Under the pieces are notes generated by a model, which made no database searches, had not been told where the DNA came from, and was given only the letters and a program-made list of their open reading frames with translations. A stretch of 51,854 nt of DNA, from the sequence record MK962751; one strand, written 5' to 3'. The position numbers and the translations under genes were made by a program. Positions 1 through 45,204 of the stretch are shown here, piece by piece. This DNA is from Shigella phage JK16. Numbering within the stretch: the first letter of the stretch is position 1; the number at the start of each line of letters is the position of its first letter.

Positions 1-930
1 TTATAGCAGTGATTCGGGCTTGTAGAGTTTTCTTTCTACTCCCTGTTTAAAATTATCGTTAACAGGCATCATTATGTCAAGTCCTCTTTCCTCTGCCGCG
101 ATTATCACATCACGATCATCTTTCCGGCAGACTACGCGCATTCTTCTTTCTCCTTTATATCTATGCGCAACCATTTCAAGATTTGAAGGAGTAAAACAGG
201 CCCACACCTCTTGACCAGTTGATAAATGAACATGCTGAGAATCAACCCAATCAAGGCACAAATAGATCGTCTTATCTGTACTACCTGTTTTAACAACAGA
301 TCCGCGCGTGTAGTCGCGAGCTAAAAACCAATCCTTTCCATCCTCATCAATGAAAAGCACGTTACACATTTCATCATCCAGCCCGTCATCATGCACCAGG
401 TGACAAGGTAGCGCGTGAATGTATCGACCATCCTTGACGCCGCAATCATAATGACAATCTTCCGGCGGATATATCCCCTCATAAACGCTTAAAGGTGTGC
501 GATCGAATTTTAATGTTTTTGCCATCACTTTTTCGCAACATTCATGACTTGCCTGTTTCCCGAACGAGTAACCAGAAGAACGCGAAGCGCGTTTGTTTGC
601 TCTGATCCTGTAATCTTGTGGCACTTTTCCGAGGAAGCGGCCCAAAATGTTGATGGCCTCGCTGTAAGGTTCGCCAGTTAATTTCATTAACCAACCGATC
701 CCCGTGTCGTTGCCGCACACGTTGCAGATCGCGCCGCCGTCGCCCTCTTCATTTAGCTTATCAGTCCATCTAAAACGATCCTTACCGCCGCAGTGTGGGC
801 AAGGTTGATGCTTTTTGTTGAAAACATCGCTATGCAGTCCGCAAATGCTTTGTAGTGCTTCACGCCATAACCCCTTCATATATGGCAAAACATCTTCTTT
901 CTGATAGGTCATAAAGTTTTCAGTATTCAT
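1..930 (-). CDS. DNA primase (zinc-ribbon plus Toprim-like region)
   Basis: CPHCGG...CNVCG zinc-binding motif followed by acidic Toprim-like segment (VVCRKDDRDVIIAAEERGLD); start chosen at MNTENF with GAGG RBS; longer ORF to 1008 would overlap upstream gene. Confidence 0.65.
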   Translation of the reverse strand: MNTENFMTYQKEDVLPYMKGLWREALQSICGLHSDVFNKKHQPCPHCGGKDRFRWTDKLNEEGDGGAICNVCGNDTGIGWLMKLTGEPYSEAINILGRFLGKVPQDYRIRANKRASRSSGYSFGKQASHECCEKVMAKTLKFDRTPLSVYEGIYPPEDCHYDCGVKDGRYIHALPCHLVHDDGLDDEMCNVLFIDEDGKDWFLARDYTRGSVVKTGSTDKTIYLCLDWVDSQHVHLSTGQEVWACFTPSNLEMVAHRYKGERRMRVVCRKDDRDVIIAAEERGLDIMMPVNDNFKQGVERKLYKPESLL

Positions 931-940
931 GGCAAACCTC

Positions 941-978
941 AATAAAAAAGCCCAGCAAATATTATCATTTCGCTGGGC
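941..978 (-). terminator. rho-independent terminator or attenuator between HTH gene and primase
   Basis: Minus-strand stem GCCCAGC/GCTGGGC with 15 nt loop followed by T-run. Confidence 0.5.
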
Positions 979-985
979 CTTATCA

Positions 986-1462
986 TTAGCTATTCGTGCT
1001 GTTATCACCTTTGTAGAATCGTCCGCCTGGTTCGTAGTCTGAATTTTTGACTACGCGCAACATATCGTATTTGTCGCAACGGGTAGTAAGAGGCTTACCG
1101 TTAGAATCAAACCGCAGATCTGGACGACAAAATGATGCGCGGTATCCTTTGCATCCATTATATTTGTAGTCGTTATGCACCTTTTGTGCTCCAGCGGCTG
1201 AAATCATACCACGCTTTCGCCACTGGTTAACGACTTGCTGAGATACGCGCAGACGTCGAGCCATAGCAGGAACGCCGCCGTAATACTCGATCAGAATGTC
1301 AAGGCGAGATTTCAGGCTTGCTTTTACCTCATCTCGCAGGATAAGAAATCCGGTTCGGTGTTTTCGTGGTTTTTTGTCTTTACCTCGTCGCGTTCCGTTG
1401 TTACCGTTAATAGTGCGCTTGTCGATCTCACCCGTAGATACTGCAATTCGTGCATCTTTCAT
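986..1462 (-). CDS. putative DNA-binding protein with Cro/YdaS-like helix-turn-helix
   Basis: Segment GGVPAMARRLRVSQQVVNQWRKRG resembles Cro/YdaS HTH; GAGGTGA RBS before start. Confidence 0.45.
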   Translation of the reverse strand: MKDARIAVSTGEIDKRTINGNNGTRRGKDKKPRKHRTGFLILRDEVKASLKSRLDILIEYYGGVPAMARRLRVSQQVVNQWRKRGMISAAGAQKVHNDYKYNGCKGYRASFCRPDLRFDSNGKPLTTRCDKYDMLRVVKNSDYEPGGRFYKGDNSTNS

Positions 1463-1549: not shown

Positions 1550-3547
1550 ATGATTCCAAATATCGAAAAACAAATATCAGCATTAGGCGAGGCAGTAATA
1601 AAAAGCATCCAAGAGCGATTCACGGTTGGCAATATAGTGCCTTATCCTTATCAGTGCGTTGCGTATGCAGAGATCGCAAAGCGCATGAAAAACTATGAGC
1701 ATCCTTTCTTTGTTAAGGCTTCTGTATCGGCTGGCAAAACATTGATGTTTGCGATGGTTGCGGCGCAATGCCGCAAAATGGGATTGAAAATGATGGTCCT
1801 TGCTCGCCAGGCTGAAATTGTTGATCAGGATTCGGAAGAGATCAGCAATCTTGGCGTGCCAAACTCAATCTATTGCGCCGGACTGAAAACAAAAAGCGCA
1901 TACTTTCCGATCGTAGTCGGTTCTGAGGGCACTGTAGTAAACGGATTGTTTAAGTCGTTAGGTGATTATGTTCCGCACGTTATCGGTATTGATGAATGTC
2001 ACCAGGTGGATTGGGAGGATCTCGCGGACGCGATAGAAAATAATGAATCTTACCAGCAGATGACCACTAAGAAGGATTTGCCAGTACTGATTGGAGAAGA
2101 ACAGCAATTTGATTCCAATGGCGATCCAATGTTCGGAACAGGGCGCACACAGTACACCGTAATAATCATGGAAATGATGCGCAGGTGTCGCGAGGCATAC
2201 GGGCACGAATTGCGAATATTCGGCATGACTGGATCTGAGTTTCGCGGCGTGGTTCCAATACTGGTTGAAGATAAGAACAAAAAGGGATTCTGGCGTGAGC
2301 AAGTAACTAACATAGACACAAACTACTTAATCAAATTCGGTTCGGTAGTGCCAACAAATTTCGGCGACGTCGGCGACCTGGGGTATGACCTTTCAGAGTT
2401 CGAGGCCAGTAGCGAGGACGGCGTTTCAGACTTTGACGCTAAAACATTGCGCAAGATGGAAGAAAAGATCCATCAAGACGCAACAATGACACAGAAAATC
2501 ATGGCTAAAGTCCATGAGATATGCAAAGACAGGAACGGAGTTTTAGTTACATGCGCAGGGGAAAGGCACTGCAAGGAGGCCGCCGCCGCACTGCCGCCAG
2601 GCGTTGAATACAGGATCATAACTGGCAAGACTGGAGATAATCAGCGTAAAGAGTGGCTGAGGGAGGCATACGAGGGAAAAGTAAAATACATCTTCCAGGT
2701 ACAGGCGCTTACCACTGGCGTTAACGTTCCGTTTTGGGATACTTCGGTAATACTGAGAAAGATAGGATCTCTAACATTGCTTATCCAGCTTTTGGGGCGC
2801 GGCATGCGACTGCTTAAGCAATGGCACATTGAACAGGGATTCAAGAAAAAAGATCATCTTGTATTGGATTTTGCAGGTACTATGGATGAGTTAGGTGATT
2901 TGTATTTCGATCCAATCCTTGAGCAAGCGCAATTCCAAAAGAGATTTACAAACGGGAAAGAGCCTAAGACTTGTCCGATATGTGGAACGCTAAACAGCTT
3001 TTACGCTCGCCGATGTATGCACGTAGACGATAACGGGAAGCGATGTGAGCATTTTTGGACTTACAGAATTTGCGAGGACCAGGTAGATCCGAGAACGAAA
3101 AAGATAATCAAGCGCGGTTGTGGAACAAAAAACGACGTAGTGGCGAGAGTATGCCGTTGTTGCGATATTTCTCTTGTCGATCCTAACGAGAAGTTAAGCG
3201 GTAAGCACTACACCAAAAACGATTGGTGCAACGTTAAATCTTTCCGCGTTGATATGACGAAAAACCAGAAAGGAATTATTTTTTGCTATGAGCTTGAGGC
3301 CAACGGCGATACGTTCAAGGCATACGAAAGATTTTTCCCTGAGTCAGAAAGCAACATTTGCCGGACGATATGGAGAAAAATAGCATTGCAGCACATACCG
3401 GATCGCAAGATTGCTGGTATGGTGGCGAGCTATAGAAATGCTCGTAAAATAATGTCATACGCTCATCACATCATGCCGCCTGTACGCGTAACGCATCGCA
3501 AAAACGGCAAAGGTGAGGATAACATTGCAAAACGGGAGTTTGTTTAA
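1550..3547 (+). CDS. ATP-dependent DNA helicase (superfamily 2) with C-terminal Cys-rich zinc-ribbon region
   Basis: Walker A SAGKT, DExH-like IDECHQ, C-terminal CPICG...C...C clusters. Confidence 0.7.
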   Translation: MIPNIEKQISALGEAVIKSIQERFTVGNIVPYPYQCVAYAEIAKRMKNYEHPFFVKASVSAGKTLMFAMVAAQCRKMGLKMMVLARQAEIVDQDSEEISNLGVPNSIYCAGLKTKSAYFPIVVGSEGTVVNGLFKSLGDYVPHVIGIDECHQVDWEDLADAIENNESYQQMTTKKDLPVLIGEEQQFDSNGDPMFGTGRTQYTVIIMEMMRRCREAYGHELRIFGMTGSEFRGVVPILVEDKNKKGFWREQVTNIDTNYLIKFGSVVPTNFGDVGDLGYDLSEFEASSEDGVSDFDAKTLRKMEEKIHQDATMTQKIMAKVHEICKDRNGVLVTCAGERHCKEAAAALPPGVEYRIITGKTGDNQRKEWLREAYEGKVKYIFQVQALTTGVNVPFWDTSVILRKIGSLTLLIQLLGRGMRLLKQWHIEQGFKKKDHLVLDFAGTMDELGDLYFDPILEQAQFQKRFTNGKEPKTCPICGTLNSFYARRCMHVDDNGKRCEHFWTYRICEDQVDPRTKKIIKRGCGTKNDVVARVCRCCDISLVDPNEKLSGKHYTKNDWCNVKSFRVDMTKNQKGIIFCYELEANGDTFKAYERFFPESESNICRTIWRKIALQHIPDRKIAGMVASYRNARKIMSYAHHIMPPVRVTHRKNGKGEDNIAKREFV

Positions 3548-3966
3548 TGGCTATAACTGATAAAGGAGATTATCTTGAGTTTTACGAAAGAGATCCAACC
3601 GACACGAGAAAGGAAGTTAATCACCAGATAGATAGCTTTCAGTGGTTGACTTATGCTCATCCTTATTTGCTAGCTTGGCATACGGTAAACGAGAATGAGA
3701 AGTCGAAAGTAACGGCGATGATTGATCAGCAGTCCGGCTTGGTTAAGGGGGTAAGCGATTTCATCATCCTGATTGGTTCAAACGGAAAATACCCCTTTGC
3801 AGCGATTGAGATCAAACGAGTGAATAAATCAGGCAAGGGGAAAGCATCACCAGTCAGCGATGAACAAAAGGCTTTTTTGCGTCGCGTTCGCAGCTTAGGA
3901 GGATTCGCTGCGGTCGCCTACGGATTTAATCAGTTTAAGTTAGCTATTGAATACATGCTTAAATAG
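3547..3966 (+). CDS. VRR-NUC domain nuclease
   Basis: GVSDFIIL...AAIEIKR...Q pattern typical of VRR-NUC (PD-(D/E)XK) fold; start overlaps helicase stop. Confidence 0.6.
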   Translation: MAITDKGDYLEFYERDPTDTRKEVNHQIDSFQWLTYAHPYLLAWHTVNENEKSKVTAMIDQQSGLVKGVSDFIILIGSNGKYPFAAIEIKRVNKSGKGKASPVSDEQKAFLRRVRSLGGFAAVAYGFNQFKLAIEYMLK

Positions 3967-5289: not shown

Positions 5290-5521
5290 ACAAGGTAGAG
5301 AGGCGGTATGGAATCACGCTAAAGAATGCGGAATAGCCGACGATATAAAGAAGATCGCGCAATACTTTGATATTGCAGATGTGAGCATAATTAGCGGCGA
5401 TAAGATGACTTTCCTCAAGGAAAGGCCGCGAAAAATGGTAAGAGTTCCAGCAGTTCCAACAAAAATTGATTTCAAAGAGGCAATGGCTAAAATCCGAGAG
5501 CCTCGCAAATATTATAAATGA
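5279..5521 (+). CDS. hypothetical protein
   Basis: ORF overlapping upstream stop; start MKIEQG. Confidence 0.4.
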   Translation: MKIEQGREAVWNHAKECGIADDIKKIAQYFDIADVSIISGDKMTFLKERPRKMVRVPAVPTKIDFKEAMAKIREPRKYYK

Positions 5522-5615
5522 GGATAGTTATCATGTGGCGCTTGTTTGTTCTACCGTTACCCGTTATCATCGCTGTTACAGTTATGTACCATATAGTGAT
5601 GAGATAGGTGGCAGA

Positions 5616-6731
5616 ATGAAAAATGTAAAAATTACAGATGAGCAATTCAAGATCGAACGGGCGGCGGGTAAGACATATAAACAGATCGCTCAAGAGTACG
5701 GAATGAATGTGAGAAGCGTCGAGCGTCGCGCGGCGCGACTTGCAAAGCAAGGCCAGGTATCCACCATTGGAGCGCCTTGTTTTGGCGTTCATGGTGAGTC
5801 AGTAATGACTGACAAAGAAGGCAACATAATCCTAAAGTGGACTAAAACCAGCAAGGATAAAGAGCAATTAGAAGCATTAATGCGCGCAGCAATGGAGGCA
5901 TTTAGCGAGGAAGTGCCGCGATTAGATCCGGTTCCATTACAGGAGCGTGACTATAACGAAACGCTTTCCTTGTATCCGATCTTTGACATGCACTTAGGAG
6001 CTATGGCCCATAAGCACGAATGCGGCGAAAATTGGGATACTGCCACGGCAGAGCGCGTTATGAATAACTTTATCGACTATGCTTTAATGTGCGCACCGGA
6101 TAGCGAAAAGGCTGTCATCCTGATTGGTGGCGATATGCTGCATAGCGACGGCCTGGAGGCGGTTACACCTGCAAGCGGTCACGTACTGGATCAAGATAGT
6201 CGATATGCAAAATTGGTTTACGTTGCCATCCGTGCAATGCGACGCGCAATCAATAAAATGTTGTTAAAGCATAAACATGTTGAAGTCCAGATCGTAGAGG
6301 GCAATCATGACCAATCAGGAATGATTTGGCTACGCGCAGCAATGGCGGCAGCATATGAAAACGAGCCGCGCGTTTACGTTGATGTTTCCCCTCGCGTTGT
6401 GCACCACACGCAATACGGAAAAACTTTCCTTGCGTACCATCACGGGCACACAGTGCGTAAACCGGAGGCTTTGCTAATGATGTGCGCGTCAGATTGGCGG
6501 GAGGACTTCGGAAACTCAAAAACGATGTATGCGCACGTAGGGCACTGGCATCACCAGACCGTGACAGAAACGTCGCTTGGCATCGTTGAGGTGCATAGCA
6601 CCCTGGCGGCAAAAGACGCATACGCCGCGCGAGGTGGCTGGAGATCTCGACGCCGTGCGGCGGTTATCATTTACGACAAAGAGCATGGAGAGGTGGGGCG
6701 ATTTGTTCACTATCCAGAAATGATGAATTGA
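5616..6731 (+). CDS. calcineurin-like metallophosphoesterase with N-terminal HTH-like segment
   Basis: Motifs DMHLG, GGDMLHSDG, EGNHD, HHGH, GHWHH; AGGTGG RBS; N-terminal ...NVRSVERRAARL... Confidence 0.6.
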   Translation: MKNVKITDEQFKIERAAGKTYKQIAQEYGMNVRSVERRAARLAKQGQVSTIGAPCFGVHGESVMTDKEGNIILKWTKTSKDKEQLEALMRAAMEAFSEEVPRLDPVPLQERDYNETLSLYPIFDMHLGAMAHKHECGENWDTATAERVMNNFIDYALMCAPDSEKAVILIGGDMLHSDGLEAVTPASGHVLDQDSRYAKLVYVAIRAMRRAINKMLLKHKHVEVQIVEGNHDQSGMIWLRAAMAAAYENEPRVYVDVSPRVVHHTQYGKTFLAYHHGHTVRKPEALLMMCASDWREDFGNSKTMYAHVGHWHHQTVTETSLGIVEVHSTLAAKDAYAARGGWRSRRRAAVIIYDKEHGEVGRFVHYPEMMN

Positions 6732-6876: not shown

Positions 6877-7092
6877 ATGAAAGATTTTATTAACGCAGCT
6901 ACCGCCGGATCTGGCGGTTCATCTATCGCAAGCGCCGCTACAGGGCAGTTAACCATTGCTATTGCCAGCTTTGTTTTAATGGCTGCATTCGGTGCATGGG
7001 GCGCTTACCTTCGCTGGCGTGATAGTAAAAAATTCCACGAGGCGATCGAAAAAGGTGATATTCAAAAAGCTATTGAAATCAGGGGCAAGTAA
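6877..7092 (+). CDS. holin
   Basis: 71 aa, single hydrophobic helix with charged C-terminus, immediately upstream of endolysin. Confidence 0.55.
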
Positions 7093-7583
7093 TGAGCATA
7101 AAGAACAAGGTAGCGGCTGCGGCCTTTGGCGTTGCGGTTGCCTTGACTTCTCCACTTCTTGAAGAGATCGAAGGGGTAAGATACAAGCCATACAAAGATA
7201 TTGCTGGAGTATGGACGGTTTGCGCAGGAATCACCGGACCAGATGTTATCCTGGGGAAAACGTACACTAAAAAAGAGTGTGATGCTTTGTTGGCTAAGCA
7301 TATCCAGGTTGCTAAAAAGGAAGTTGACAAGCAAGTTAAGGTTGACATTCCTGATAGTATGCGTGCAGCAATGTACTCATTCACTTACAATGCAGGTGTG
7401 GGAGCTTTCAGAAATTCAACAATGCTGAAACTCATAAACCAGGGGAAATTAAACGAGGCTTGCGATCAGCTTTATCGTTGGACTTATTACCATAACCAAA
7501 AAACAGGAAAGCGCGAGAAGTCTAAAGGCTTACTTAACAGGCGCAAGGTCGAATACAAATATTGCACAATGGATCTGAAATGA
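7092..7583 (+). CDS. SAR endolysin, GH24 lysozyme
   Basis: N-terminal Ala/Gly-rich weakly hydrophobic signal-anchor-release segment then E..D..T catalytic triad pattern ([26 protein letters not shown]). Confidence 0.8.
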
Positions 7584-7975
7584 TGAAGAATTTTTTACTT
7601 ACACCAATCGCAATGGCGGTGATCTTGTCTGGATGTTCAAGCGTTACGCCACTGACCGGATTAATCGGCAGTAAGCCGGAAATCACAGCACAGGCTGGAG
7701 CGGAGAACGTGAAGCAGACAGTTGGCATTACAGCAAAGCAGGACGCCAGCACAAAACAGGAAACCACAATAAAGGAATCTGCGGTTGACAAGGTGGACAC
7801 GTCCAGCAAGAAGGATTTCACAACATCAACCATTCAGGCCAATACCATCAAGGCAGACAAAATTCAGGTCGTGCAGGGTAATAACGGCAGATGGTACGAT
7901 CCGGTAATCATATGCGTGGTTGTGTTAATTGTGCTGATTTGTCTTTACTGGAGAGAAAAGAAAAAGGAGGCTTAA
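7580..7975 (+). CDS. unimolecular spanin (T1 gp11-like)
   Basis: N-terminal lipoprotein signal with lipobox LSGC and C-terminal transmembrane helix ([16 protein letters not shown]); start overlaps endolysin stop. Confidence 0.7.
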
Positions 7976-7992
7976 TGCCTCCTTTATTTTTA
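7963..7992 (+). terminator. rho-independent terminator after lysis cassette
   Basis: Stem AAGGAGGC/GCCTCCTT followed by TATTTTTAT; stem overlaps spanin stop. Confidence 0.6.
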
Positions 7993-8214
7993 TGCGTCGG
8001 GCCACATATGAGTTTCGTTTGTTGGCTTGTTCGATTCGTCGTACTGCCTTACTTCAATGCTGCAAGTGTCGCCGTACATTTCTGCAATCTTGCGCTCATT
8101 TTCAAACGCCGATTGCTCACTCCAGCCTGAATCCTTATCGTAAACTGTCGGGATTTCAGAAGAAGATCCATTTGCATGATTGTATACGCGAACTACTAAA
8201 AACTTGCTGGACAT
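7990..8214 (-). CDS. hypothetical protein
   Basis: Minus ORF with AAGGA RBS. Confidence 0.4.
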   Translation of the reverse strand: MSSKFLVVRVYNHANGSSSEIPTVYDKDSGWSEQSAFENERKIAEMYGDTCSIEVRQYDESNKPTNETHMWPDA

Positions 8215-8251
8215 GATTTTTCCTTTTTGGTTGGTTCGTTTCGATGAAACA

Positions 8252-8294
8252 AATATACCCGACACAATGTCGGGAGTTTTAACAAAAAATGCTA
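8252..8294 (-). promoter_or_regulatory. motif-class promoter, minus strand (TAGCATTTTTTGTTAAAAC, hairpin, TATATT)
   Basis: Motif variant plus -10-like hexamer 18 nt downstream on minus strand. Confidence 0.4.
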
Positions 8295-8486
8295 TTCCAT
8301 ACGCTTTACTGTAACCAATAACACACCATCATCATTGCATAAAACGTGTTCATTGGTGCTAAAAGCGCGCATATCTGAATAAAGCAGCGTAAGTAACGCA
8401 TGAATAAGATCCTCATGTGATATTGAATTTACGGCGCAGTGCTTCAAGATCTTGTCTATTAGCTTTTGCCTGGAACAATTCATCAT
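8292..8486 (-). CDS. hypothetical protein
   Basis: ORF whose stop lies in motif copy; overlaps neighbour, start uncertain. Confidence 0.3.
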   Translation of the reverse strand: MMNCSRQKLIDKILKHCAVNSISHEDLIHALLTLLYSDMRAFSTNEHVLCNDDGVLLVTVKRME

Positions 8487-8808
8487 CGCCCATCTCCCCT
8501 ATTCTAGCCATATCCCTGATCCAGTCGTTGCGCATACCATCCAGGCTATACAATTCGAATCCGAAAGGCCGCTTTGACGATCCTTTGGACCAGTATTTTC
8601 CGCAGACTCCATCTATATAACCAGCCGTCATCATTCTTGCGCAAAATTCCTTAGATGCAAGGCTGGCGAACATTCGCGGCGTAAGTCCGGCGGCCCGTGC
8701 GAGCCGCTCACATTCTCTATGCTGATAGATAAATTTGGCTATGTGCTGCCTGTTAAACCAATCGTATGACTCACACCATTTATACAGATCAAGCAAAAAC
8801 ATAATCAT
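8413..8808 (-). CDS. hypothetical protein
   Basis: 131 aa ORF, start overlaps stop of upstream gene. Confidence 0.45.
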   Translation of the reverse strand: MIMFLLDLYKWCESYDWFNRQHIAKFIYQHRECERLARAAGLTPRMFASLASKEFCARMMTAGYIDGVCGKYWSKGSSKRPFGFELYSLDGMRNDWIRDMARIGEMGDDELFQAKANRQDLEALRRKFNIT

Positions 8809-10385
8809 CCCAGCAGTATTGGATTGACAAAAATAACACCATTAATCACACAAACATAATTTCTTTCTTCCAGCATTGGCAGTAAGTGCCCTTCTATCCT
8901 TTTCATTACGCCAGCCTGACCAACGAAAGGTTTTACCTTTCTCGCTGATTCGTACAGGGCGCGGATATTCAGAATACCTTTATTAGCCTTGCCGTGCCTC
9001 GTGATCAATTCAATCAATTTACCCATTTCAGCATCATCACCAGCATAACCAGAAGCATTGGCGGCGCTAATGTATGTTTTGCTCAATTCCTGAAACATGA
9101 TCAACGCCTCTTGCATTGTTTCCACGTCGATCTCTTTCGACTTCTGCGGGTATCCGGCAGGATTAAACCAGTTACGGATAACATGCAGGACGGAAGCAAG
9201 CCTGATCACCTGTTTATCCATTTTACCCAGCGCACCGCGTAACATTGTATGAGAATACTTTCCTCCGTCTGCAAGATGCGGTTCCATATCCTGGCGAGCA
9301 ATGTTGAGCACTCGCATAGCTGAACGGCTTATTTTCAGCGATATATTTGATTCGCTCATGATGTTATGCACCAATTGATAATATTGGGCTTTCAATTCAG
9401 AATCCACCGCCTCATAGGTAGAATCACCATTTTCATCAATGAATGAGCGACGGCCTAAGAATGATTCCTCTCGGACCAACAAAAAACGCTCACTAACACC
9501 GATGCCTCGCGATCCAGCGTCCATGATTCCGCTTATCGTTTCATCCTGGGCTATGACGCTCATACATCCAAGCGCGCGAAAACTCATATTATTGTCAGCA
9601 TTAGCACGGGCAATTGATACGTGACCATTATCCCACGCCTTAAGCACTAACTCACTGTTAGTCTTCCTTTCGCTATTTGCATAGGTCAAGCCTAACAGAC
9701 TGTTAATACTTGTTGCTTCATCAGATATTACGGCAAAGTTACCTTGCTTGTTGTTGATTTTCGCCAAGCCTTCTGGAGTTGTATCTGAAACAGGAAAAGT
9801 TATATCACACATTTTTTCCAGCTTTTCCTCCAGATCCTCTTTTTCCTGGTATAGAGATTCCATATCAGCGCCGGATCTTTCGCTTTTCATCTCCTTTGCA
9901 AGACCTGCCAGCTTTGCCTGTATTTTCTTTCTTTCCTTGCGGCGTTGCTCGTTGATCTTCTCAACTTCCGCAATCATCGGAGCAATAGCCATGCTGTTGA
10001 TCGCAGATTTACCAGTTGACGGCGGCTGGCTTGTAACGACGTAAAGCGCAGTCGGCTGATCGGTTCCGTGATAGTCAACCGTAAAGCGTCCAAGCATAGC
10101 GGCAGAAATGCAGCCGATAAAGTGCATGTAAGCCGATGATTCAGGGAATTGAACGGATCGCGCAATGCTGCGTGATAACTTGCCGACAACATCAATATCA
10201 TTACCAAGAGAAATAACGGGGTAGCGATCGTGACCGCTATTCACATCCTTTACGTCGCCCCAAAAGCTGGACGACTGGCGATAGCCGTTAGCCTGAATTG
10301 ATACGCGAACTGGCGAAAGGTTCTGGCTTTCAGCCATAGCGATTATTTGTTGTGGAGTTAATTTGTTCGTTTCTAATGAAAACAT
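8805..10385 (-). CDS. DUF3987-like P-loop protein
   Basis: PPSTGKS P-loop-like segment and overall similarity to YfjI/DUF3987-type proteins; AAGGAG RBS. Confidence 0.5.
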   Translation of the reverse strand: MFSLETNKLTPQQIIAMAESQNLSPVRVSIQANGYRQSSSFWGDVKDVNSGHDRYPVISLGNDIDVVGKLSRSIARSVQFPESSAYMHFIGCISAAMLGRFTVDYHGTDQPTALYVVTSQPPSTGKSAINSMAIAPMIAEVEKINEQRRKERKKIQAKLAGLAKEMKSERSGADMESLYQEKEDLEEKLEKMCDITFPVSDTTPEGLAKINNKQGNFAVISDEATSINSLLGLTYANSERKTNSELVLKAWDNGHVSIARANADNNMSFRALGCMSVIAQDETISGIMDAGSRGIGVSERFLLVREESFLGRRSFIDENGDSTYEAVDSELKAQYYQLVHNIMSESNISLKISRSAMRVLNIARQDMEPHLADGGKYSHTMLRGALGKMDKQVIRLASVLHVIRNWFNPAGYPQKSKEIDVETMQEALIMFQELSKTYISAANASGYAGDDAEMGKLIELITRHGKANKGILNIRALYESARKVKPFVGQAGVMKRIEGHLLPMLEERNYVCVINGVIFVNPILLG

Positions 10386-10437
10386 TCGTTAGCTTCTCCT
10401 TTGTGGGCCGTAAATTTTAACGGCCCAATACTACCCC

Positions 10438-10456
10438 GTTTTGTCAAAAAGTGCTA
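10438..10456 (-). promoter_or_regulatory. motif copy (TTGACA variant) followed by hairpin GGGCCGT..ACGGCCC, upstream of DUF3987 gene
   Basis: Motif variant TAGCACTTTTTGACAAAAC; no clear -10 at standard spacing. Confidence 0.35.
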
Positions 10457-10729
10457 TTTGATCCGCTCTATTGCAACCAGAAGTCGATCAGGCTGGCGGT
10501 CGCTGTAGCATTCTCCTGTAATCCCATCCTTAAACGTAAAGTAAAGCGCCTTATGATATGAAAAACCAATCAGCCAACCTACCGCCGTTTTTTTGATGGG
10601 CCTGACTATATCGCCAGGCTTGAAGGTTTTTGTTGCTGAATGAGTCACCTTATAGCGATATTCAGCCTTGATCATAAGGCTTCTCGCTTCCGTGGTTTTT
10701 GTGGAATCCGTACTTTTTCCAAATGGCAT
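10454..10729 (-). CDS. hypothetical protein
   Basis: ORF ending in motif TAG; may start at internal Met. Confidence 0.35.
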   Translation of the reverse strand: MPFGKSTDSTKTTEARSLMIKAEYRYKVTHSATKTFKPGDIVRPIKKTAVGWLIGFSYHKALYFTFKDGITGECYSDRQPDRLLVAIERIK

Positions 10730-11183
10730 CTCTTGATGCTACAGCGCTATCAATTGATGCATGATAACCACCAGAAATACACCTGCCATCAACAGTTACT
10801 TGTACGCACCATTTAGACACCCTCTTATTCCACATCACGCCAGTATAACCAGATTTATTTGTCGATCTCCTTGTGTGGTTTTGTGAGTTTTGTTTTCTTG
10901 TGACAAGCCGGAGGTTTTCGATTCTATTGTCATCTCTTATGTGATTCACGTGATCTATCTCCATTCCTTTTGGTATTGTTTTTCCATGCATCCACCAAAC
11001 AATCCAATGCGCCGGATACTCTCTGCCACCAATACCTATACGTCTATATCCGTTTTTAGTTATATAACCTGCCTCATCGCCAATTTTTGCCCGTCTTCCT
11101 GATGGGCTTTTCCATAATAGACGACCATTTTCATATATAAATAAATTTAGAAGTACTTGCCTTGAAATTCCGCTATTGCACAT
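10662..11183 (-). CDS. HNH homing endonuclease with AP2 DNA-binding domain
   Basis: HNH motif IDHVNHIRDDNRIENLRLVTRKQN; AP2-like SGYTGVMWNKRVSKWCVQV...; N-terminal NUMOD-like YENGRLLW. Confidence 0.75.
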   Translation of the reverse strand: MCNSGISRQVLLNLFIYENGRLLWKSPSGRRAKIGDEAGYITKNGYRRIGIGGREYPAHWIVWWMHGKTIPKGMEIDHVNHIRDDNRIENLRLVTRKQNSQNHTRRSTNKSGYTGVMWNKRVSKWCVQVTVDGRCISGGYHASIDSAVASRDAIWKKYGFHKNHGSEKPYDQG

Positions 11184-11374
11184 TTAAATCCCACCTCGCA
11201 TCTTTCAAGAGTCCATTGCTCACCTTGAGCATCAACAACGTAACCAGCTACAGCGCCTAAAACCCTTCCCATAATTATCTCATAGCGTTTCCCTTCCTTA
11301 AAATGCTGACCTGGCTTTACGCTGTTCATGTGGTGGTAAACTTTTGAGCATTTTATTGTTCTCTTCTTTGCCAT
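11147..11374 (-). CDS. hypothetical protein
   Basis: 75 aa ORF. Confidence 0.4.
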   Translation of the reverse strand: MAKKRTIKCSKVYHHMNSVKPGQHFKEGKRYEIIMGRVLGAVAGYVVDAQGEQWTLERCEVGFKCAIAEFQGKYF

Positions 11375-11404
11375 CGTTTATTTCTCCTTTCGTTTCGGTG
11401 AAGT

Positions 11405-11448
11405 GATTATGCCAGGTTTTTACACCTGGCTTTTAACAAAAAGTGCTA
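11405..11448 (-). promoter_or_regulatory. motif-class promoter, minus strand (motif, hairpin CCAGGTG..ACCTGG, ATAATC)
   Basis: -10-like hexamer 19 nt downstream of motif. Confidence 0.45.
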
Positions 11449-12156
11449 TTTTGAGTTTGACTCAAATACGGCGCGAGCAAATCCGCGCGGAGTGAGGGAG
11501 CGGATCATCTTTGTGCGTGATGAATTGCCGCCAGTTTTGGCCCAGCCTGGATTATCTTTGTCTTTCTCTTTCGGCAGGATTAAAGCGCGTGGAGGAATAA
11601 CAAAGCCGTTGCCAGTCCAGAGGCATGTTTTCTTAAAGTAGCGATCCCGCGCCGGAATAATATCAGGGAAGTCGGGATGTTTATCATCTTCCGGCAGATA
11701 GCCAGCGTAATCGCACGGATGGAACGTATAATCAGGCTTACGCCATAACGTTGACAACTTGCCAACCGGATTTTCGATCATGTAAGGAACACCGAAATAA
11801 TCAGCTATATCAGCCGCGATTCTGCAAGTGTCGGCGGCCTCATCCTGGAACGATGGATTCTCAAGGCGTTTTTTGGCCCAATGGCGAGATCCGCTATTTG
11901 CAAGGTCGGTGCAAGGAGGGAACGCCATAATAAAATCAGGATTGCCCCACTCATTATTGATTGCCTTAACATAAAAAGCATCATCAATCCAGACGTTAAC
12001 GTATTCGATATTCTCATGCTGTATGCGCACTGACTGGTAATCACCGTGATCGCCGCCGTCAGCATTAAAGCAAATGCACTTATATCCATTATCAGCCCAA
12101 TCTTTAACGGCTTTACCAGATCCATCAAATAGGGAGAATATTAAACCTTTATACAT
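11446..12156 (-). CDS. DNA cytosine-5 methyltransferase-like protein (short, no obvious target-recognition domain)
   Basis: Motif I-like FSLFDGSGK, motif IV-like FPPCTDLANSG (PCT rather than PCQ), motif VI-like MIENPVG, C-terminal RSLTPRGFARAVF. Confidence 0.5.
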   Translation of the reverse strand: MYKGLIFSLFDGSGKAVKDWADNGYKCICFNADGGDHGDYQSVRIQHENIEYVNVWIDDAFYVKAINNEWGNPDFIMAFPPCTDLANSGSRHWAKKRLENPSFQDEAADTCRIAADIADYFGVPYMIENPVGKLSTLWRKPDYTFHPCDYAGYLPEDDKHPDFPDIIPARDRYFKKTCLWTGNGFVIPPRALILPKEKDKDNPGWAKTGGNSSRTKMIRSLTPRGFARAVFESNSK

Positions 12157-14795: not shown

Positions 14796-15210
14796 TGCAG
14801 GGGAGATAGTGAAACCTTCCCCTCTTGCCTCACTTTCCCGCCTGGCTGTCAGTGGTTGTTATGTTCCGTTCCCGCCTGTTCTTTTGTTGACCTTCCGCAA
14901 AATACGATAACAAAAAATAACAAACAATACCTATATAATACATTGAAAAATAAGGATTATTTATTTATATGTATCTATATATTATCTTTTGTTATCTTGG
15001 TTATTGTGGTATTTGGTGGGGGTATATAGTTTTTGTGTATCTATATGTGTGTATGGGTATGTAGGGGCATATATATCTATATGGCACTTTCCGCGAGAAA
15101 ACTTCGATAACAGCCAATGATAACATTGATTTATAAGGAAAAATAACGCCAATATTGTTATTGTGCCACCATATAAAATTGATAAAACACGCGGGAACAA
15201 GAAAAAACAG

Positions 15211-15239
15211 TTGACACATTAAATAGCATTATTGATAAT
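15211..15239 (+). promoter_or_regulatory. sigma70-type promoter, copy 1 (TTGACA, 17 nt, GATAAT)
   Basis: Consensus -35, 17 nt spacer, near-consensus -10, 30 nt upstream of ATG. Confidence 0.6.
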
Positions 15240-15268
15240 GCCGACACCTAACAACCAGGAGGTAGAAA

Positions 15269-15475
15269 ATGAGCGAGCAATCATTAACTGACACGCTGCG
15301 CCGTGCAGCTATTATGCTGGCTAATGGCGAGGAAGAGGCGATCAAGATTCCTGACGCGTATTTGCAGGTCCACATGTTCGGCAAGAAGTCGGCAAGCAAT
15401 CCGGCGGCCTACATTCGCCAGATCATGAGTCGAGTTCCAGAAGTCGCCGAGCGTTCCCGCCTGTTCTTTTGTTGA
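15269..15475 (+). pseudogene. truncated duplicate of the 5-prime part of the first early gene
   Basis: First 61 codons identical to the 15854 gene, then runs out of the repeat unit into a short unrelated tail. Confidence 0.6.
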
Positions 15476-15795
15476 CCTTCCGCAAAATACGATAACAAAA
15501 AATAACAAACAATACCTATATAATACATTGAAAAATAAGGATTATTTATTTATATGTATCTATATATTATCTTTTGTTATCTTGGTTATTGTGGTATTTG
15601 GTGGGGGTATATAGTTTTTGTGTATCTATATGTGTGTATGGGTATGTAGGGGCATATATATCTATATGGCACTTTCCGCGAGAAAACTTCGATAACAGCC
15701 AATGATAACATTGATTTATAAGGAAAAATAACGCCAATATTGTTATTGTGCCACCATATAAAATTGATAAAACACGCGGGAACAAGAAAAAACAG

Positions 15796-15824
15796 TTGAC
15801 ACATTAAATAGCATTATTGATAAT
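15796..15824 (+). promoter_or_regulatory. sigma70-type promoter, copy 2 (TTGACA, 17 nt, GATAAT)
   Basis: Identical to copy 1, upstream of intact gene. Confidence 0.6.
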
Positions 15825-15853
15825 GCCGACACCTAACAACCAGGAGGTAGAAA

Positions 15854-16318
15854 ATGAGCGAGCAATCATTAACTGACACGCTGCGCCGTGCAGCTATTAT
15901 GCTGGCTAATGGCGAGGAAGAGGCGATCAAGATTCCTGACGCGTATTTGCAGGTCCACATGTTCGGCAAGAAGTCGGCAAGCAATCCGGCGGCCTACATT
16001 CGCCAGATCATGAGTCGAGTTCCAGAAGTCGCCGAGCGGGGGCGCGTATCCGTTACCCGTGGAGTTTACGGGCCGGAAGATGAAAACTTCGGTAGCACTT
16101 TCTACGAGGTGCGCATTGTTGAAGGACGTCGCAAGGTTTACAACAAAGAGGCACTGGAAAGGGCAGTACGCCAGGCTAAGCGCAAGGTTGCAGAGGCGAT
16201 CATTGATATGTCACCAAACCTAGCAAACTATGCGCCGGAAGAGTATGAAACATTATCAAAGGCCGTCGCTGACTTTCACGCGATGATCAAAAAAACTTTC
16301 CTGGAGGATGAGCAATGA
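15854..16318 (+). CDS. hypothetical early protein
   Basis: 154 aa; AGGAGG RBS; first gene after strong promoter. Confidence 0.55.
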   Translation: MSEQSLTDTLRRAAIMLANGEEEAIKIPDAYLQVHMFGKKSASNPAAYIRQIMSRVPEVAERGRVSVTRGVYGPEDENFGSTFYEVRIVEGRRKVYNKEALERAVRQAKRKVAEAIIDMSPNLANYAPEEYETLSKAVADFHAMIKKTFLEDEQ

Positions 16319-31274: not shown

Positions 31275-31293
31275 CGTTTAACAAAAAGTGCTA
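31275..31293 (-). promoter_or_regulatory. motif copy in antisense orientation within the structural module
   Basis: Reverse-complement motif between decoration and capsid genes; no -10 at standard spacing. Confidence 0.3.
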
Positions 31294-31300
31294 TCATCTA

Positions 31301-34991: not shown

Positions 34992-35029
34992 TTCCTGTAA
35001 AATCAATCTATCAAATAAATTAATTCCAC

Positions 35030-35048
35030 TTTTAACAAAAAGTGCTAT
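35030..35048 (-). promoter_or_regulatory. motif copy in antisense orientation upstream of G chaperone gene
   Basis: Reverse-complement motif abutting the AAGGAG RBS. Confidence 0.3.
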
Positions 35049-43900: not shown

Positions 43901-44561
43901 TCAGGCCGTTCAGCAGCTTGACGCTAAGTTCACGAAAGAGATAAACGACCTTGACGGAGTTATCAAAACAGAAGTCGAGGCTAACATCTCAGAAGTGAAA
44001 CAGGCGATCGCCAATGAGACAGAGGCAAGGGTTCAGGCTGACCAGGCATTAACAGCACGATTTGGCGACGTTGAATCTGCATTGGTTGAAAAGTTGGATT
44101 CTTGGGCGAGCGTTGATTCAGTTGGGGCTAAATACGCTATGAAACTTGGCCTTACTTACAAAGGCCAGCAATACAGCGCAGGAATGGTGATGCAGCTTTC
44201 GCAGGGTTCATCCGGCCTTATCTCGCAAATTTTGTTTGATGCTAACAGGTTCGCCATTATGACTAGCTCTACTGGAGGGACTTTTACTTTGCCTTTCGTG
44301 GTTGAGAATAATCAGGTTTTCATTAATAGTCTTTTGGTGAAGAACGGTTCAATCACTAATGCGATGATTGGTAATGTGATTCAGTCAAACAACTTTGTTC
44401 AAAACCAGCAAGGATGGAGGCTTGATAAAAACGGAATCTTTGAGAATTACGGATCAACGCCAGGAGAAGGAGCTACTAAATTCACCAATGAGGGATTGAA
44501 GGTAAAAGATGCAAACGGAGTATTGAGGGTTGAAGTCGGAAGGATTACCGGAAGCTGGTAA
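40983..44561 (+). CDS. central tail fibre / host specificity protein J
   Basis: 1192 aa; two fibronectin-III-like segments; C-terminal tandem repeats; position after I. Confidence 0.85.
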   Translation: MAKYMISGSKGGSKKPYVPKEMEDNLISINKIKVLLAVSDGECDPDFTLRDLYLDDVPVIASDGTVNYEGVTAEYRPGTQTQDYIQGFTDTSSEVTVARDITGDNPYVISVTNKNLSAVRIKILMPVGIKTEDNGDLVGVRVEYAVDMAVDGGSYSEVMRDVIDGKTRSGYDRSRRIDLPKFDERVLIRVKRLTPDSTSSKVTDKIKLQSYAEVVDAKFRYPLTGLVFVEFDSELFPTQIPNISIKKKWKIINVPSNYDPISREYHGSWDGTFKKAWSNNPAWVLYDLVTNQRYGLDQRELGIQIDKWSLYEAGVYCDQKVPDGKGGTEPRYLCDVVIQNQVEAYQLIRDICSIFRGMSFWNGESLSIVIDKPRDPSYVFTNENVINGDFQYTNASEKSMYTQCNVTFDDEQNMYQQDVEGVFDTEAALRFGYNPTSITAIGCTRRSEANRRGRWVLKTNLRSTTVNFATGLEGMIPSIGDVIAIADNFQSSNLTLNLSGRVMEVSGLQVFVPFKVDARPGDFIIINKPDGKPVKRTISKVSADGKTIELNIGFGFDVKPDTVFAIDRTDLALQQYVVTTISKGDDENEFTYSITAVEYDPNKYDEIDYGVNIDDRPTSIVQPDVMAAPENVKISSYSRVVQGVSVETMVVSWDKVPYASLYEMQWRKGDGNWLNTPQTANKEIEVEGIYSGNYQVRVRSVSASGNASPWSKIATATLTGKVGEPGAPINLTASDNEVFGIRVKWGMPEGSGDTAYIELHQSPDGTVENSSLLTLIPYPQYEYWHSTLPAGQVVWYRIRSVDRIGNVSSWTDFVRGMASDDVESVLGDILDKIFDTEAGQEIKENAIDSANKIKDQAQSIIQNALANDADVKWTRVQNGKRKAEYGHALELIANETEARVTQIEELRASIDGEITSSIKTVQEAIATESETRATQIQQLDSKFTKEIDGVRKDTSASISDVRQTITNESEARAQAVQQLDAKFTKEINDLDGVIKTEVEANISEVKQAIANETEARVQADQALTARFGDVESALVEKLDSWASVDSVGAKYAMKLGLTYKGQQYSAGMVMQLSQGSSGLISQILFDANRFAIMTSSTGGTFTLPFVVENNQVFINSLLVKNGSITNAMIGNVIQSNNFVQNQQGWRLDKNGIFENYGSTPGEGATKFTNEGLKVKDANGVLRVEVGRITGSW
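43650..44060 (+). repeat. in-frame tandem repeats within J C-terminal region
   Basis: Repeated peptide ...ESE(A/T)RA.Q.QQLD(A/S)KFTKEI... about 40 residues apart. Confidence 0.6.
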
Positions 44562-44562
44562 A

Positions 44563-44590
44563 AAAGGGGGCATAGCCCCCTTTAATTTTA
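44563..44590. terminator. bidirectional rho-independent terminator between J (plus) and minus-strand genes
   Basis: Stem AAGGGGG/CCCCCTT flanked by A-run and T-run. Confidence 0.7.
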
Positions 44591-45202: not shown

Positions 45203-45204
45203 TA

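What the first reader, a model, noticed from the sequence alone, without database searches (positions are those of the whole stretch)
8805..10385. Large DUF3987-like P-loop protein in the minus-strand cluster
A 526 aa protein with PPSTGKS and helicase-loader-like features lies far from the primase and helicase genes, among small accessory genes, and is preceded by a motif copy plus hairpin. Its role (replication initiation, recombination or host takeover) is unclear.
Basis: inference. Interest (0 to 1): 0.45.

Follow-up and report, generated by a model that had tools for sequence, protein, structure and literature searches.

The report
MCM-like helicase of T1-like phage
This gene encodes the DUF3987-family, MCM-like ATPase that T1-like coliphages most likely use as their own DNA-unwinding (replicative) helicase; it is a conserved core gene that public records already annotate as a helicase, not an unexplained accessory protein.

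Summary
ORF 8805-10385 (-) encodes 526 aa with PPSTGKS at residues 121-127. It is preceded by one copy of a genome-wide promoter-like motif and a hairpin.

The role is not unclear. The window is a Drexlerviridae (T1-like, Warwickvirus-type) genome. The protein is 100% identical to proteins of phages swan01 and tunus, and 924 phage records hold a homologue. It occupies the same position in T1 (gp9), Tls, Nouzillyvirus and Webervirus. RefSeq and PHROGs call it "DNA helicase".

It matches Pfam DUF3987 (E 1.7e-44). Kazlauskas et al. 2016 classed this family as divergent SF6/MCM-like helicases with a C-terminal winged helix. A distant member, AgaPH, was shown in 2025 to be a 5'-3' helicase.

In more distant phages the gene sits beside the same primase, SF2-helicase and recombination module. 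Remote homologues are fused to primase or DnaB-N domains.

Best reading: this is the phage's replicative (possibly origin-binding) helicase, working with a helicase-less primase and host Pol III. It is an ordinary finding.

The parts
8805..10385 (-). CDS of the 526-aa DUF3987-family, MCM-like AAA+ helicase (orthologue of T1 gp9/ST9)
   Evidence: ORF. Pfam DUF3987 E 1.7e-44. PHROG 2373 'DNA helicase' E 2.6e-244 over the full length. 100% aa identity to swan01 and tunus. AF2 model pLDDT 90.1. MCM proteins are the top fold hits.
10098..10385 (-). N-terminal all-helical region (aa 1-96); no OB-fold or Zn domain like that of MCM
   Evidence: DSSP of the model: helices 11-21, 25-33, 36-41, 66-78 and 82-96. 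In remote homologues this end is replaced or extended by primase, PriCT_2 or DnaB_N domains.
10005..10025 (-). Walker A / P-loop PPSTGKS (aa 121-127)
   Evidence: K126 is invariant and G125/S127 are >=90% conserved across 50 homologues down to 24% identity.
9813..10010 (-). Long antiparallel helical hairpin (aa 126-191) extending the Walker A helix. It is included in the Pfam match but is not a feature I know from MCM.
   Evidence: DSSP H126-168 and H172-191. Spurious coiled-coil Pfam hits occur here (WWC1 hairpin, OmpH). The position relative to beta2 is inferred from the DSSP string, not from a superposition.
9717..9731 (-). Walker B strand VISDE (aa 219-223)
   Evidence: E223 is invariant and S221 is >=90% conserved. 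D222 is replaced by Ala, Ser or Tyr in some members shown.
9576..9623 (-). Beta-hairpin before beta4 (aa 255-270), in the position of a pre-sensor-1 hairpin, carrying invariant R260
   Evidence: DSSP E255-258 and E267-270, followed by E273-279. R260 is invariant. Equating it with the MCM PS1 hairpin is an inference.
9486..9569 (-). Sensor-1 strand ...VIAQDE (A279 invariant, Q280 >=90%) and G-x-G-x-SERF with invariant R300 (candidate arginine finger, compare MCM 'SRF')
   Evidence: The comparison with the MCM SRF motif comes from established knowledge of MCM, not from a tool result.
9171..9326 (-). Helical lid (aa 354-405) with invariant K388 (GK-DKQ)
   Evidence: DSSP; conservation.
8808..8978 (-). 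C-terminal winged-helix domain (aa ~470-526)
10438..10457 (-). Copy of the genome-wide promoter-associated motif ATAGCACTTTTTG(T/A)(T/C)AAAAC directly upstream of the gene. The TAG stop of the preceding ORF lies inside it.
   Evidence: The motif is conserved upstream of the orthologues in mar001J1, Tls and ESCO41.
10405..10426 (-). Hairpin GGGCCGT-TAAAATTT-ACGGCCC enclosing a -10-like TAAAAT (10414-10419). An AGGAG ribosome-binding site follows at 10396-10400.
   Evidence: z = -2.0; I8.
8413..8808 (-). Downstream 131-aa gene whose ATG overlaps the helicase stop (ATGA). It is conserved next to the helicase across Drexlerviridae; function unknown.
   Evidence: PHROG 2794, unknown function. Same position in T1 (ST10), Tls (annotated 'HTH domain-containing protein'), ESCO41 and GH-K3.
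1..1008 (-). Presumed partner: primase with a primase-helicase-type Zn-ribbon but no helicase domain
   Evidence: Pfam Zn_Ribbon_Prim E 4.8e-15. It matches only positions 6-316 of the 667-position PHROG 510 primase profile.
1550..3966 (+). SF2 helicase (ResIII/Helicase_C, 1550-3547) plus VRR-NUC nuclease (3547-3966). This is the other 'helicase' of the genome, of a repair/recombination type rather than a ring helicase.

Best explanation
The gene encodes a DUF3987-family AAA+ ATPase of the MCM-like (superfamily 6) clade. Most likely it assembles into a ring on phage DNA and uses ATP hydrolysis to unwind the duplex, acting as the phage's own replicative helicase. The candidate catalytic residues are Walker A K126, Walker B E223 and a trans-acting arginine finger R300. 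The candidate DNA contact is a beta-hairpin carrying R260.

It would cooperate in trans with the helicase-less primase (window 1-1008) and with host DNA polymerase III, because the phage encodes no polymerase. The C-terminal winged helix may position it on DNA or at an origin.

The gene has its own copy of the phage's promoter-like motif and is translationally coupled to a conserved small downstream gene.

Shown here: family membership, intact catalytic motifs, MCM-like fold, conserved synteny, and linkage or fusion to primases in relatives. Inferred: hexamer formation, helicase activity and polarity in this protein, its replicative role, primase and Pol III coupling, and winged-helix function.
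For: - Family: Pfam DUF3987 E 1.7e-44; PHROG 2373 'DNA helicase' E 2.6e-244.
- Conservation: K126, E223, R260, R300 and K388 are invariant in 50 homologues down to 24% identity.
- Links to primases: remote homologues are fused to the DnaG Zn-ribbon, PriCT_2 or the DnaB N-terminal domain. BFVD neighbours include PrimPol, Toprim and NrS-1-like fusions.
- Context in distant phages: in Akira and VLCpiS13a the gene lies next to primase, SF2 helicase, exoVIII, an Erf-like protein (annotated as such only in Akira) and SSB. In pYD38-B it lies upstream of unannotated genes followed by exoVIII and SSB.
- Context in Drexlerviridae: the position is conserved in T1, Tls, Nouzillyvirus, Webervirus and Warwickvirus, and 924 phage records hold a homologue.
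- Gene inventory: the window primase lacks a helicase half. No DNA polymerase, DnaB or DnaC is annotated in the two relatives inspected, and none was found among the window ORFs scanned.
- Literature: DUF3987 was classed as SF6/MCM-like with a C-terminal wHTH and proposed as a phage replicative helicase; the N4 dns protein of this family is essential for replication (PMC4889955). The PriCT-DUF3987 protein AgaPH unwinds DNA 5'-3', depends on Walker A and B, and binds its primase-polymerase (PMC11724360).
Against: - No experiment exists on this protein or on T1 gp9, as far as I could find.
- In Drexlerviridae the gene is not adjacent to the primase. It lies 5-8 kb away, at the far end of an early cluster of small genes.
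- I could not retrieve the classical work on which host dna genes T1 needs. If host DnaB is required for elongation, this protein cannot be the sole fork helicase.
- It lacks the MCM N-terminal OB/Zn tier. It shows no obvious helix-2 insert in the model and no Pfam MCM match, so its mechanism and polarity may differ from MCM. AgaPH runs 5'-3', whereas MCM is known (from my own knowledge, not a tool result) to run 3'-5'.
- No iterons or origin-like repeats lie in or next to the gene.
- MCM8/9 and ComM, which are recombination helicases, also appear among the structural neighbours.
Confidence: 0.7

Rival explanations
1. It is a recombination or fork-remodelling motor rather than the fork helicase: a ring translocase comparable to ComM, MCM8/9 or RuvB. 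It would drive branch migration or recombination-dependent replication and concatemer formation together with the phage exoVIII, Erf and SSB. Host DnaB or the SF2 helicase would serve the forks.
Against: Remote homologues are fused to primases and to the primase-binding DnaB N-domain, not to recombinases. AgaPH binds a primase-polymerase, and N4 dns is essential for replication (PMC11724360, PMC4889955). Replicative MCMs score highest.
Confidence: 0.15
2. It is an initiator or helicase loader: an AAA+ protein that recognises the phage origin through its winged helix and recruits or loads host DnaB, without unwinding DNA itself.
For: It has a C-terminal winged helix like ORC/Cdc6. It has a helical insertion after Walker A. 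The phage has no annotated initiator.
Against: None of 50 family members gives a Pfam DnaC/IstB or DnaA hit. ORC/Cdc6 hits cover only the winged helix of about 80-100 residues, whereas the ATPase core aligns best with MCM. The model shows a pre-sensor-1-type beta-hairpin with an invariant Arg, which is typical of translocases. The insertion lies before beta2, not at the ISM position. A family member is a bona fide helicase (PMC11724360). An initiator role in addition to a helicase role is not excluded and is compatible with the main explanation.
Confidence: 0.1
3. It is an accessory host-takeover or anti-defence ATPase unrelated to replication.
For: It lies in an early cluster of small genes of unknown function. 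That cluster includes a homologue of the SECphi27 Mokosh type I trigger.
Against: There is no PADLOC hit. The gene is conserved across the Drexlerviridae genera inspected and beyond. It is linked to replication genes in other lineages. Its catalytic motifs are under strict conservation.
Confidence: 0.03

Closest known systems
T1 gp9 (ST9, YP_003936.1) and its Drexlerviridae orthologues (e.g. mar001J1 HOV63_gp52, Tls 'yfiJ putative ATPase')
   Same: They are orthologues. The protein is 100% identical to those of swan01 and tunus and about 58% identical to Tunavirus proteins (ADB-2, LeonhardEuler); the T1 orthologue itself was identified by annotation and position, not aligned. Length is the same (522-531 aa). 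The position is the same: small genes, then the helicase, then a small gene, convergent on the spanin/endolysin/holin cassette.
   Different: Nothing substantive differs. In T1 an HNH gene abuts the helicase start. In the window the HNH gene lies two genes upstream, and the helicase has its own promoter-like motif.
AgaPH, the PriCT-DUF3987 helicase of a Seonamhaeicola mobile element (PMC11724360)
   Same: It has the same Pfam family (DUF3987), conserved Walker A and B motifs, and a small C-terminal domain. It is functionally tied to a primase.
   Different: AgaPH has an N-terminal PriCT domain and is encoded right next to an AEP primase-polymerase. The phage protein has a short helical N-terminus, and its primase is Zn-ribbon-type and 7.8 kb away.
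Archaeal and eukaryotic MCM (SF6 AAA+ replicative helicase)
   Different: The phage protein has no N-terminal OB-fold/Zn tier and no Pfam MCM match. No helix-2 insert is evident. It has an extra helical hairpin of about 65 residues after Walker A. Sequence identity is only 10-19%. The polarity reported for the family member AgaPH is 5'-3', whereas MCM is known (my own knowledge) to run 3'-5'.
Phage N4 dns and mycobacteriophage Corndog SF6 helicase (DUF3987 members discussed in PMC4889955)
   Same: They belong to the same family and have the same proposed role as a phage replicative helicase. N4 dns is genetically essential for replication.
   Different: N4 dns carries a C-terminal AEP primase domain. 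The T1-type protein is stand-alone.
Other helicases linked to a primase or to mobile-element replication (Cch/DUF927 of SCCmec)
   Different: Cch belongs to a different ATPase family (DUF927). Phage P4 alpha, a primase-helicase fusion that comes to mind from my own knowledge, was not tested here.

Membership tests
DUF3987 (Pfam PF13148) helicase family | Match to the family HMM above the curated gathering score | tested here: met
   152.9 bits against a cut-off of 27, E 1.7e-44, residues 81-430 on profile positions 3-350 of 364. All 50 aligned homologues match.
DUF3987 (Pfam PF13148) helicase family | Conserved Walker A (GKS/T) and Walker B acidic residue, required for helicase activity in AgaPH | tested here: met
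   K126 and E223 are invariant; G125 and S127 are >=90% conserved. The requirement in AgaPH is from PMC11724360.
DUF3987 (Pfam PF13148) helicase family | [quoted passage not shown] | tested here: met
DUF3987 (Pfam PF13148) helicase family | Fusion to, or immediate neighbourhood with, an AEP or DnaG-type primase | tested here: inconclusive
   This is not met in the window: the primase is 7.8 kb away. It is met in Akira and VLCpiS13a, where the primase is 1-2 genes away, and in fused remote homologues.
DUF3987 (Pfam PF13148) helicase family | ATP-dependent DNA unwinding and oligomeric state | not testable with these tools
   This needs biochemistry. It has been shown only for AgaPH (PMC11724360).
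MCM family proper (Pfam PF00493; SF6) | Sequence-level match to the MCM model | tested here: not met
   None of the 50 members gives a Pfam MCM hit at E <= 0.1. No PDB MCM is hit by sequence or by profile. Kazlauskas et al. link the families only by HHsearch (PMC4889955).
MCM family proper (Pfam PF00493; SF6) | MCM-type AAA+ core fold with a pre-sensor-1 hairpin and an SRF arginine finger | tested here: met
MCM family proper (Pfam PF00493; SF6) | N-terminal OB-fold/Zn-binding tier | tested here: not met
   Residues 1-96 are all-helical in a confident model.
MCM family proper (Pfam PF00493; SF6) | Helix-2 insert hairpin | tested here: inconclusive
   The helix between the presumed beta2 and Walker B (204-214) is uninterrupted in the DSSP string. 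I had no coordinates to superpose.
DnaC/IstB or DnaA-type AAA+ loader/initiator | Sequence match to the loader or initiator families | tested here: not met
   No such Pfam hit at E <= 1 for the protein or at E <= 0.1 for 50 homologues. No NCBIfam hit.
DnaC/IstB or DnaA-type AAA+ loader/initiator | ATPase core closest to the initiator clade, with the ISM helical insert after beta2 | tested here: not met
   ORC/Cdc6 hits cover only about 80-100 residues, the winged helix. The helical insert lies directly after Walker A, before beta2 (inference).
DnaB/SF4 RecA-fold replicative helicase | DnaB_C/RecA-type ATPase domain | tested here: not met
   There is no Pfam DnaB_C hit. Fold neighbours are AAA+, not RecA-type. 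One remote homologue carries the DnaB N-terminal domain fused to DUF3987 in place of the DnaB ATPase domain.

The most novel reading that the evidence does not exclude
The T1-type DUF3987 protein is both the origin recogniser (through its winged helix) and the fork helicase. T1-like replication would then be independent of host DnaA, DnaB and DnaC. The replisome would be chimeric: an MCM-like AAA+ motor lacking the MCM N-tier, a helicase-less primase, and bacterial Pol III holoenzyme. The family-specific helical hairpin after Walker A would serve as the adaptor to the primase or to the Pol III clamp loader.
Probability: 0.3. Interest if true: 0.5.

Novelty: already known. Interest (0 to 1): 0.15.

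Why it matters
The result corrects the reading of this gene. It is not an enigmatic accessory ATPase or a loader. It is the conserved MCM-like helicase of the T1 family, and so the most plausible fork helicase of a classic model phage group that carries no polymerase and a primase without a helicase domain.

Two gaps remain. No DUF3987 protein has a solved structure that is detectable by sequence. No T1-family member has been tested biochemically or genetically. How an MCM-like motor would work with bacterial Pol III is therefore an open but already recognised question. For genome annotation, the label 'DNA helicase (DUF3987, MCM-like)' is adequate.

Tried and rejected
- PDB sequence searches with the single protein and with a 50-sequence profile found nothing meaningful. 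Structural inference therefore rests on the AlphaFold model.
- NCBIfam gave no hit and PADLOC gave no hit.
- Sequence-level links to MCM, DnaC, DnaA or DnaB were absent in all 50 family members.
- I looked for iterons or origin-like repeats in and around the gene, 7900-11500. Only short two-copy matches at chance level turned up.
- I tried to find classical data on T1 DNA-negative genes and on host dnaB dependence. Three literature searches and the T1 genome paper by DOI yielded nothing usable. The supplement of Kazlauskas 2016 is not held.
- I checked whether defence-escape studies hit this gene in the close relative SECphi27. They hit a different, nearby 128-aa gene. A Druantia/Zorya preprint was not relevant.
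- Tandem Repeats Finder missed the 585-bp duplication because the period exceeds 500. A script found it.
- I considered the hairpin upstream of the gene as an intrinsic terminator and rejected it: no T-run follows, and the terminator scan does not list it.
Full report
**1. The observation**

The ORF listing gives a 526-aa ORF at exactly 8805..10385 on the minus strand with an ATG start. Its sequence contains PPSTGKS at residues 121-127. It lies in a minus-strand block of mostly small ORFs that runs from about 14.6 kb down to about 8.0 kb and converges on the holin/endolysin/spanin cassette at 6877-7975.

The primase (1-1008, -) and the SF2 helicase (1550-3547, +) lie 5-8 kb away. Dam, an exonuclease gene and the lysis genes sit in between.

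Upstream of the start codon the minus strand reads AAATAGCACTTTTTGACAAAAC-GGGGTAGTATTGGGCCGT-TAAAAT-TTACGGCCC-ACAAAGGAGAAGCTAACGA-ATG. The first 20 nt (10438-10457) are one copy of a motif, ATAGCACTTTTTGTTAAAAC. The motif has 17 clear copies in the window within 4 mismatches. An eighteenth match at the 5-mismatch limit (5453-5472) is doubtful.

GGGCCGT/ACGGCCC (10405-10426) forms a hairpin. Its RNA fold z-score is -2.0.

**2. What genome this is**

Megablast of 8000-11500 finds 97-99% identical Escherichia phages: EC167, BEK12A, mar001J1, tonn, SECphi27 and swan01. mar001J1 is classified as Drexlerviridae; Tempevirinae; Warwickvirus. The window is a T1-like siphovirus genome.

Its replication and recombination inventory is as follows:
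- a Zn-ribbon primase, an SF2 helicase plus VRR-NUC, Dam, and a PDDEXK exoVIII-like protein;
- ERF, an SSB (named by synteny with mar001J1, with no Pfam hit), and a PNKP-type phosphatase;
- several HNH endonucleases.

No DNA polymerase, DnaB-type helicase or DnaC-type loader is annotated in mar001J1 or T1. None appeared among the window ORFs I scanned.

**3. Family assignment**

Pfam gives DUF3987 (PF13148): E 1.7e-44, residues 81-430, nearly the full profile. PHROGs gives phrog_2373 'DNA helicase' at E 2.6e-244 over the whole length. The C-terminal 85 residues also match a separate family, phrog_7327. NCBIfam and PADLOC give nothing.

By tblastn, 924 phage records hold a homologue, and 910 of them cover at least 80% of the query. 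Most are Klebsiella, Escherichia, Salmonella and Shigella phages. The protein is 100% identical to those of swan01 and tunus. In a library of 1.84 billion representatives, 2635 proteins match at E <= 1e-3.

The literature already covers the family. Kazlauskas, Krupovic and Venclovas (2016, PMC4889955) identified the bacteriophage DUF3987 proteins as divergent superfamily-6 helicases distantly related to MCM, with 98% HHsearch probability for the Corndog protein. They noted a C-terminal winged HTH and frequent fusion or adjacency to AEP or DnaG primases. They pointed out that the replication-essential N4 dns protein is a member. They concluded that DUF3987 proteins act as phage replicative helicases.

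Kazlauskas et al. 2018 (PMC5862659) list DUF3987 among the ATPase domains that substitute for MCM, RepA or DnaB in primase fusions. A 2025 NAR paper (PMC11724360) purified a PriCT-DUF3987 protein, AgaPH. That work showed it is oligomeric, binds its partner primase-polymerase, and unwinds 5'-overhang and forked DNA with 5'-3' polarity. The activity depends on Walker A and Walker B. A Pantoea phage paper also calls its DUF3987 protein a putative helicase.

**4. Independent checks made here**

*Conservation.* I aligned 50 homologues spanning 88% to 24% identity (A1). Invariant residues are M1, K126 (Walker A), E223 (Walker B), R260, A279, G296, R300 and K388. Conserved at 90% or more are Q120, P121, G125, S127, S221, Q280, G294, E299 and others. 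The block G-x-G-x-S-E-R-F leading into a beta-strand resembles the MCM 'SRF' arginine-finger motif. That comparison rests on established knowledge of MCM, not on a tool.

*Structure.* AlphaFold2 on A1 gave pLDDT 90.1 and pTM 0.87. The layout is:
- a helical N-terminus (1-96);
- an alpha/beta ATPase core (about 100-352), with a 43-residue Walker A helix that folds back as a helical hairpin (126-191) and a beta-hairpin (255-270) just before the sensor-1 strand;
- a helical lid (354-405);
- two long helices (421-467);
- a winged helix (470-520).

ORC/Cdc6 appear only through alignments of about 80-100 residues, which correspond to the winged helix. No DnaC, DnaA or DnaB appears near the top. Sequence and profile searches of the PDB find no relative, so no DUF3987 structure detectable by sequence appears to have been solved.

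**5. Context in relatives**

T1 itself has the orthologue ST9 (44517-46085, -; 'DNA helicase' in RefSeq). The small gene ST10 follows it, and both converge on the spanin/endolysin/holin genes. This is the same arrangement as in the window. The arrangement recurs in Tls (where the gene is called 'yfiJ putative ATPase'), in ESCO41 (Nouzillyvirus) and in GH-K3 (Webervirus).

More distant phages were more informative; their proteins are 27-37% identical. In Salmonella phage Akira and Klebsiella phage VLCpiS13a the gene order is DUF3987 helicase, one or two small genes, primase, SF2 helicase, small gene, exoVIII, an Erf-position gene, and SSB. Vibrio phage pYD38-B has a comparable block, with several genes unannotated.

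The same set of replication and recombination genes that is scattered in Drexlerviridae is therefore contiguous elsewhere, with the DUF3987 gene at its head.

Among remote homologues I found fusions with three domains: the DnaG CHC2 zinc ribbon (P0156), PriCT_2 (P0227) and the DnaB N-terminal domain (P0193). BFVD structural neighbours include PrimPol, Toprim and NrS-1-like primase fusions.

The window's own primase matches only the first half (positions 6-316 of 667) of the PHROG primase profile 510. Its Pfam match is the zinc-binding domain of primase-helicases. It therefore appears to be a primase without a helicase half.

**6. Mechanism proposed**

The protein most likely forms a ring ATPase that unwinds phage DNA at the fork.
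- ATP would bind at K126/S127.
- E223 would act as the catalytic glutamate.
- R300 from the neighbouring subunit would complete the site.
- The hairpin with R260 would face the DNA channel.

These steps are inferred from conservation, the predicted fold and the AgaPH biochemistry. None has been shown for this protein. Priming would come in trans from the primase at 1-1008, and synthesis from host Pol III.

The winged helix could give DNA or origin binding, or could contact a partner. The family-specific helical hairpin after Walker A is a candidate interaction arm. That last point is pure inference.

*Expression.* The gene has its own copy of the phage's promoter-like module: motif, 18-nt spacer, then TAAAAT. 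Copies of the motif are also present upstream of the orthologues in mar001J1, Tls and ESCO41. The helicase stop codon overlaps the start of the conserved downstream gene as ATGA, which suggests co-translation of a partner of unknown function.

**7. Rivals**

- A recombination or branch-migration role is the most serious alternative, given the gene's company and the MCM8/9 and ComM neighbours.
An initiator function in addition to unwinding remains possible.
- An accessory or anti-defence role has no support.

The main weakness of the replicative-helicase reading is missing data. I could not retrieve the classical work on host dna gene requirements of T1, nor any direct experiment on gp9.

**8. 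Membership**

The protein is a member of DUF3987 by the curated threshold and by the family's motifs and C-terminal winged helix. It works like, and folds like, an MCM ATPase core. It is not a member of the MCM family proper, for three reasons:
- it has no sequence-level match;
- it has no N-terminal OB/Zn tier;
- it carries an extra helical hairpin.

It fails every DnaC/DnaA and DnaB/SF4 membership feature tested.

**9. Verdict**

The finding is real but ordinary. The gene is a core Drexlerviridae gene, identical to deposited proteins and already annotated as a DNA helicase. It belongs to a family whose nature was predicted in 2016 and whose helicase activity was demonstrated in 2025.

Novelty: already known. 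Interest: about 0.15. The residual interest is that no T1-family member has been tested, and no structure of the family detectable by sequence has been solved.

Noticed in passing
window, + strand copies at 1474, 3963, 5034, 16584, 18378, 19828, 22463, 26651, 51766; - strand copies at 8276, 10438, 11430, 13347, 14652, 31275, 35029, 45807 (each 20 nt): The 20-nt motif ATAGCACTTTTTGTTAAAAC occurs in 17 clear copies, mostly at the heads of gene groups and in the direction of local transcription. In the typical copies the layout is: motif, a spacer of about 18 nt holding a GC hairpin whose sequence differs between copies, a -10-like hexamer (CATAAT, TATAAT or TATAGT), a leader resembling CATCGAAACGAAC, an RBS, then ATG. 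There is no canonical -35 at the usual distance, and the stop codon of the preceding gene often lies in or at the motif. It looks like a phage-specific promoter class, possibly served by the Cro/YdaS-like regulator at 986-1462. The motif is also present upstream of the helicase orthologues in Tls and ESCO41.
   Followed up: partly
window 31275-31294 (-) and 35029-35048 (-): Two copies of the promoter-like motif point antisense to the plus-strand structural genes around them. They lack the usual hairpin, -10 and leader downstream. No explanation found.
   Followed up: no
window 14867-16038: There is a perfect 585-bp tandem duplication, 14867-15451 and 15452-16036, seen as a 587-nt exact run at period 585. 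It lies in the AT-rich divergent region between the minus and plus early clusters. It duplicates two sigma-70-like promoters and the 5' part of ORF 15854-16318 (DUF7174). In T1 the genome ends and terminal repeat lie at this same junction, so it may be an assembly artefact of terminal redundancy or a very recent duplication. A 40-nt probe from the unit has no exact match in the mar001J1 locus.
   Followed up: partly
window 14957-15017, 15542-15602 and 45949-46009: A 61-nt very AT-rich element (TTATTTATTTATATGTATCTATATATTATC...GGTTATTGTGGTATTTGGT) appears in both copies of the duplication. A third copy, 70% identical, lies at about 45.95 kb, upstream of the exoVIII/Erf/SSB genes. GC content falls to 27-29% at the first two sites. 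These are candidates for DNA-unwinding or origin-like regions; this was not tested.
   Followed up: no
window 11147-11374 (-) with HNH gene 10662-11183 (-): This 75-aa ORF is homologous to only the C-terminal half of the 128-aa SECphi27 protein of unknown function. A frameshift in that SECphi27 protein lets the phage escape Mokosh type I, and expressing it is toxic with Mokosh (bioRxiv 10.1101/2022.08.27.505566; PHROG 2684 positions 56-126 of 127). In this phage and in mar001J1 an HNH endonuclease gene overlaps its 3' end, and the N-terminal half is missing. The phage may therefore differ from SECphi27 in Mokosh sensitivity.
   Followed up: partly
window 8413-8808 (-): The start codon of this 131-aa gene overlaps the helicase stop codon (ATGA). 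It is conserved directly downstream of the helicase in T1 (ST10), Tls (annotated as HTH domain-containing), ESCO41 and GH-K3. It has no Pfam or PADLOC hit and matches PHROG 2794, of unknown function. It is a possible helicase partner.
   Followed up: partly
hit H75 (NC_049838.1 Klebsiella phage KL, 6230-6508) and window aa 441-525: The C-terminal winged-helix part of the helicase matches a separate PHROG (7327, unknown function). Residues 430-522 also match, at 43% identity, an unannotated stretch of Klebsiella phage KL. The domain may therefore also exist on its own or as a gene remnant.
   Followed up: no
window 5466-6731 (+): The ORF in the position of the 'DNA repair exonuclease' of relatives gave only weak HTH and sigma-70 region 4 Pfam hits near its N-terminus (E 2e-3 to 9e-3). 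No nuclease domain appeared at the threshold used. The listed ORF starts at a TTG and is longer than the annotated orthologue (421 aa against 398 aa), so the true start is probably further downstream.
   Followed up: no
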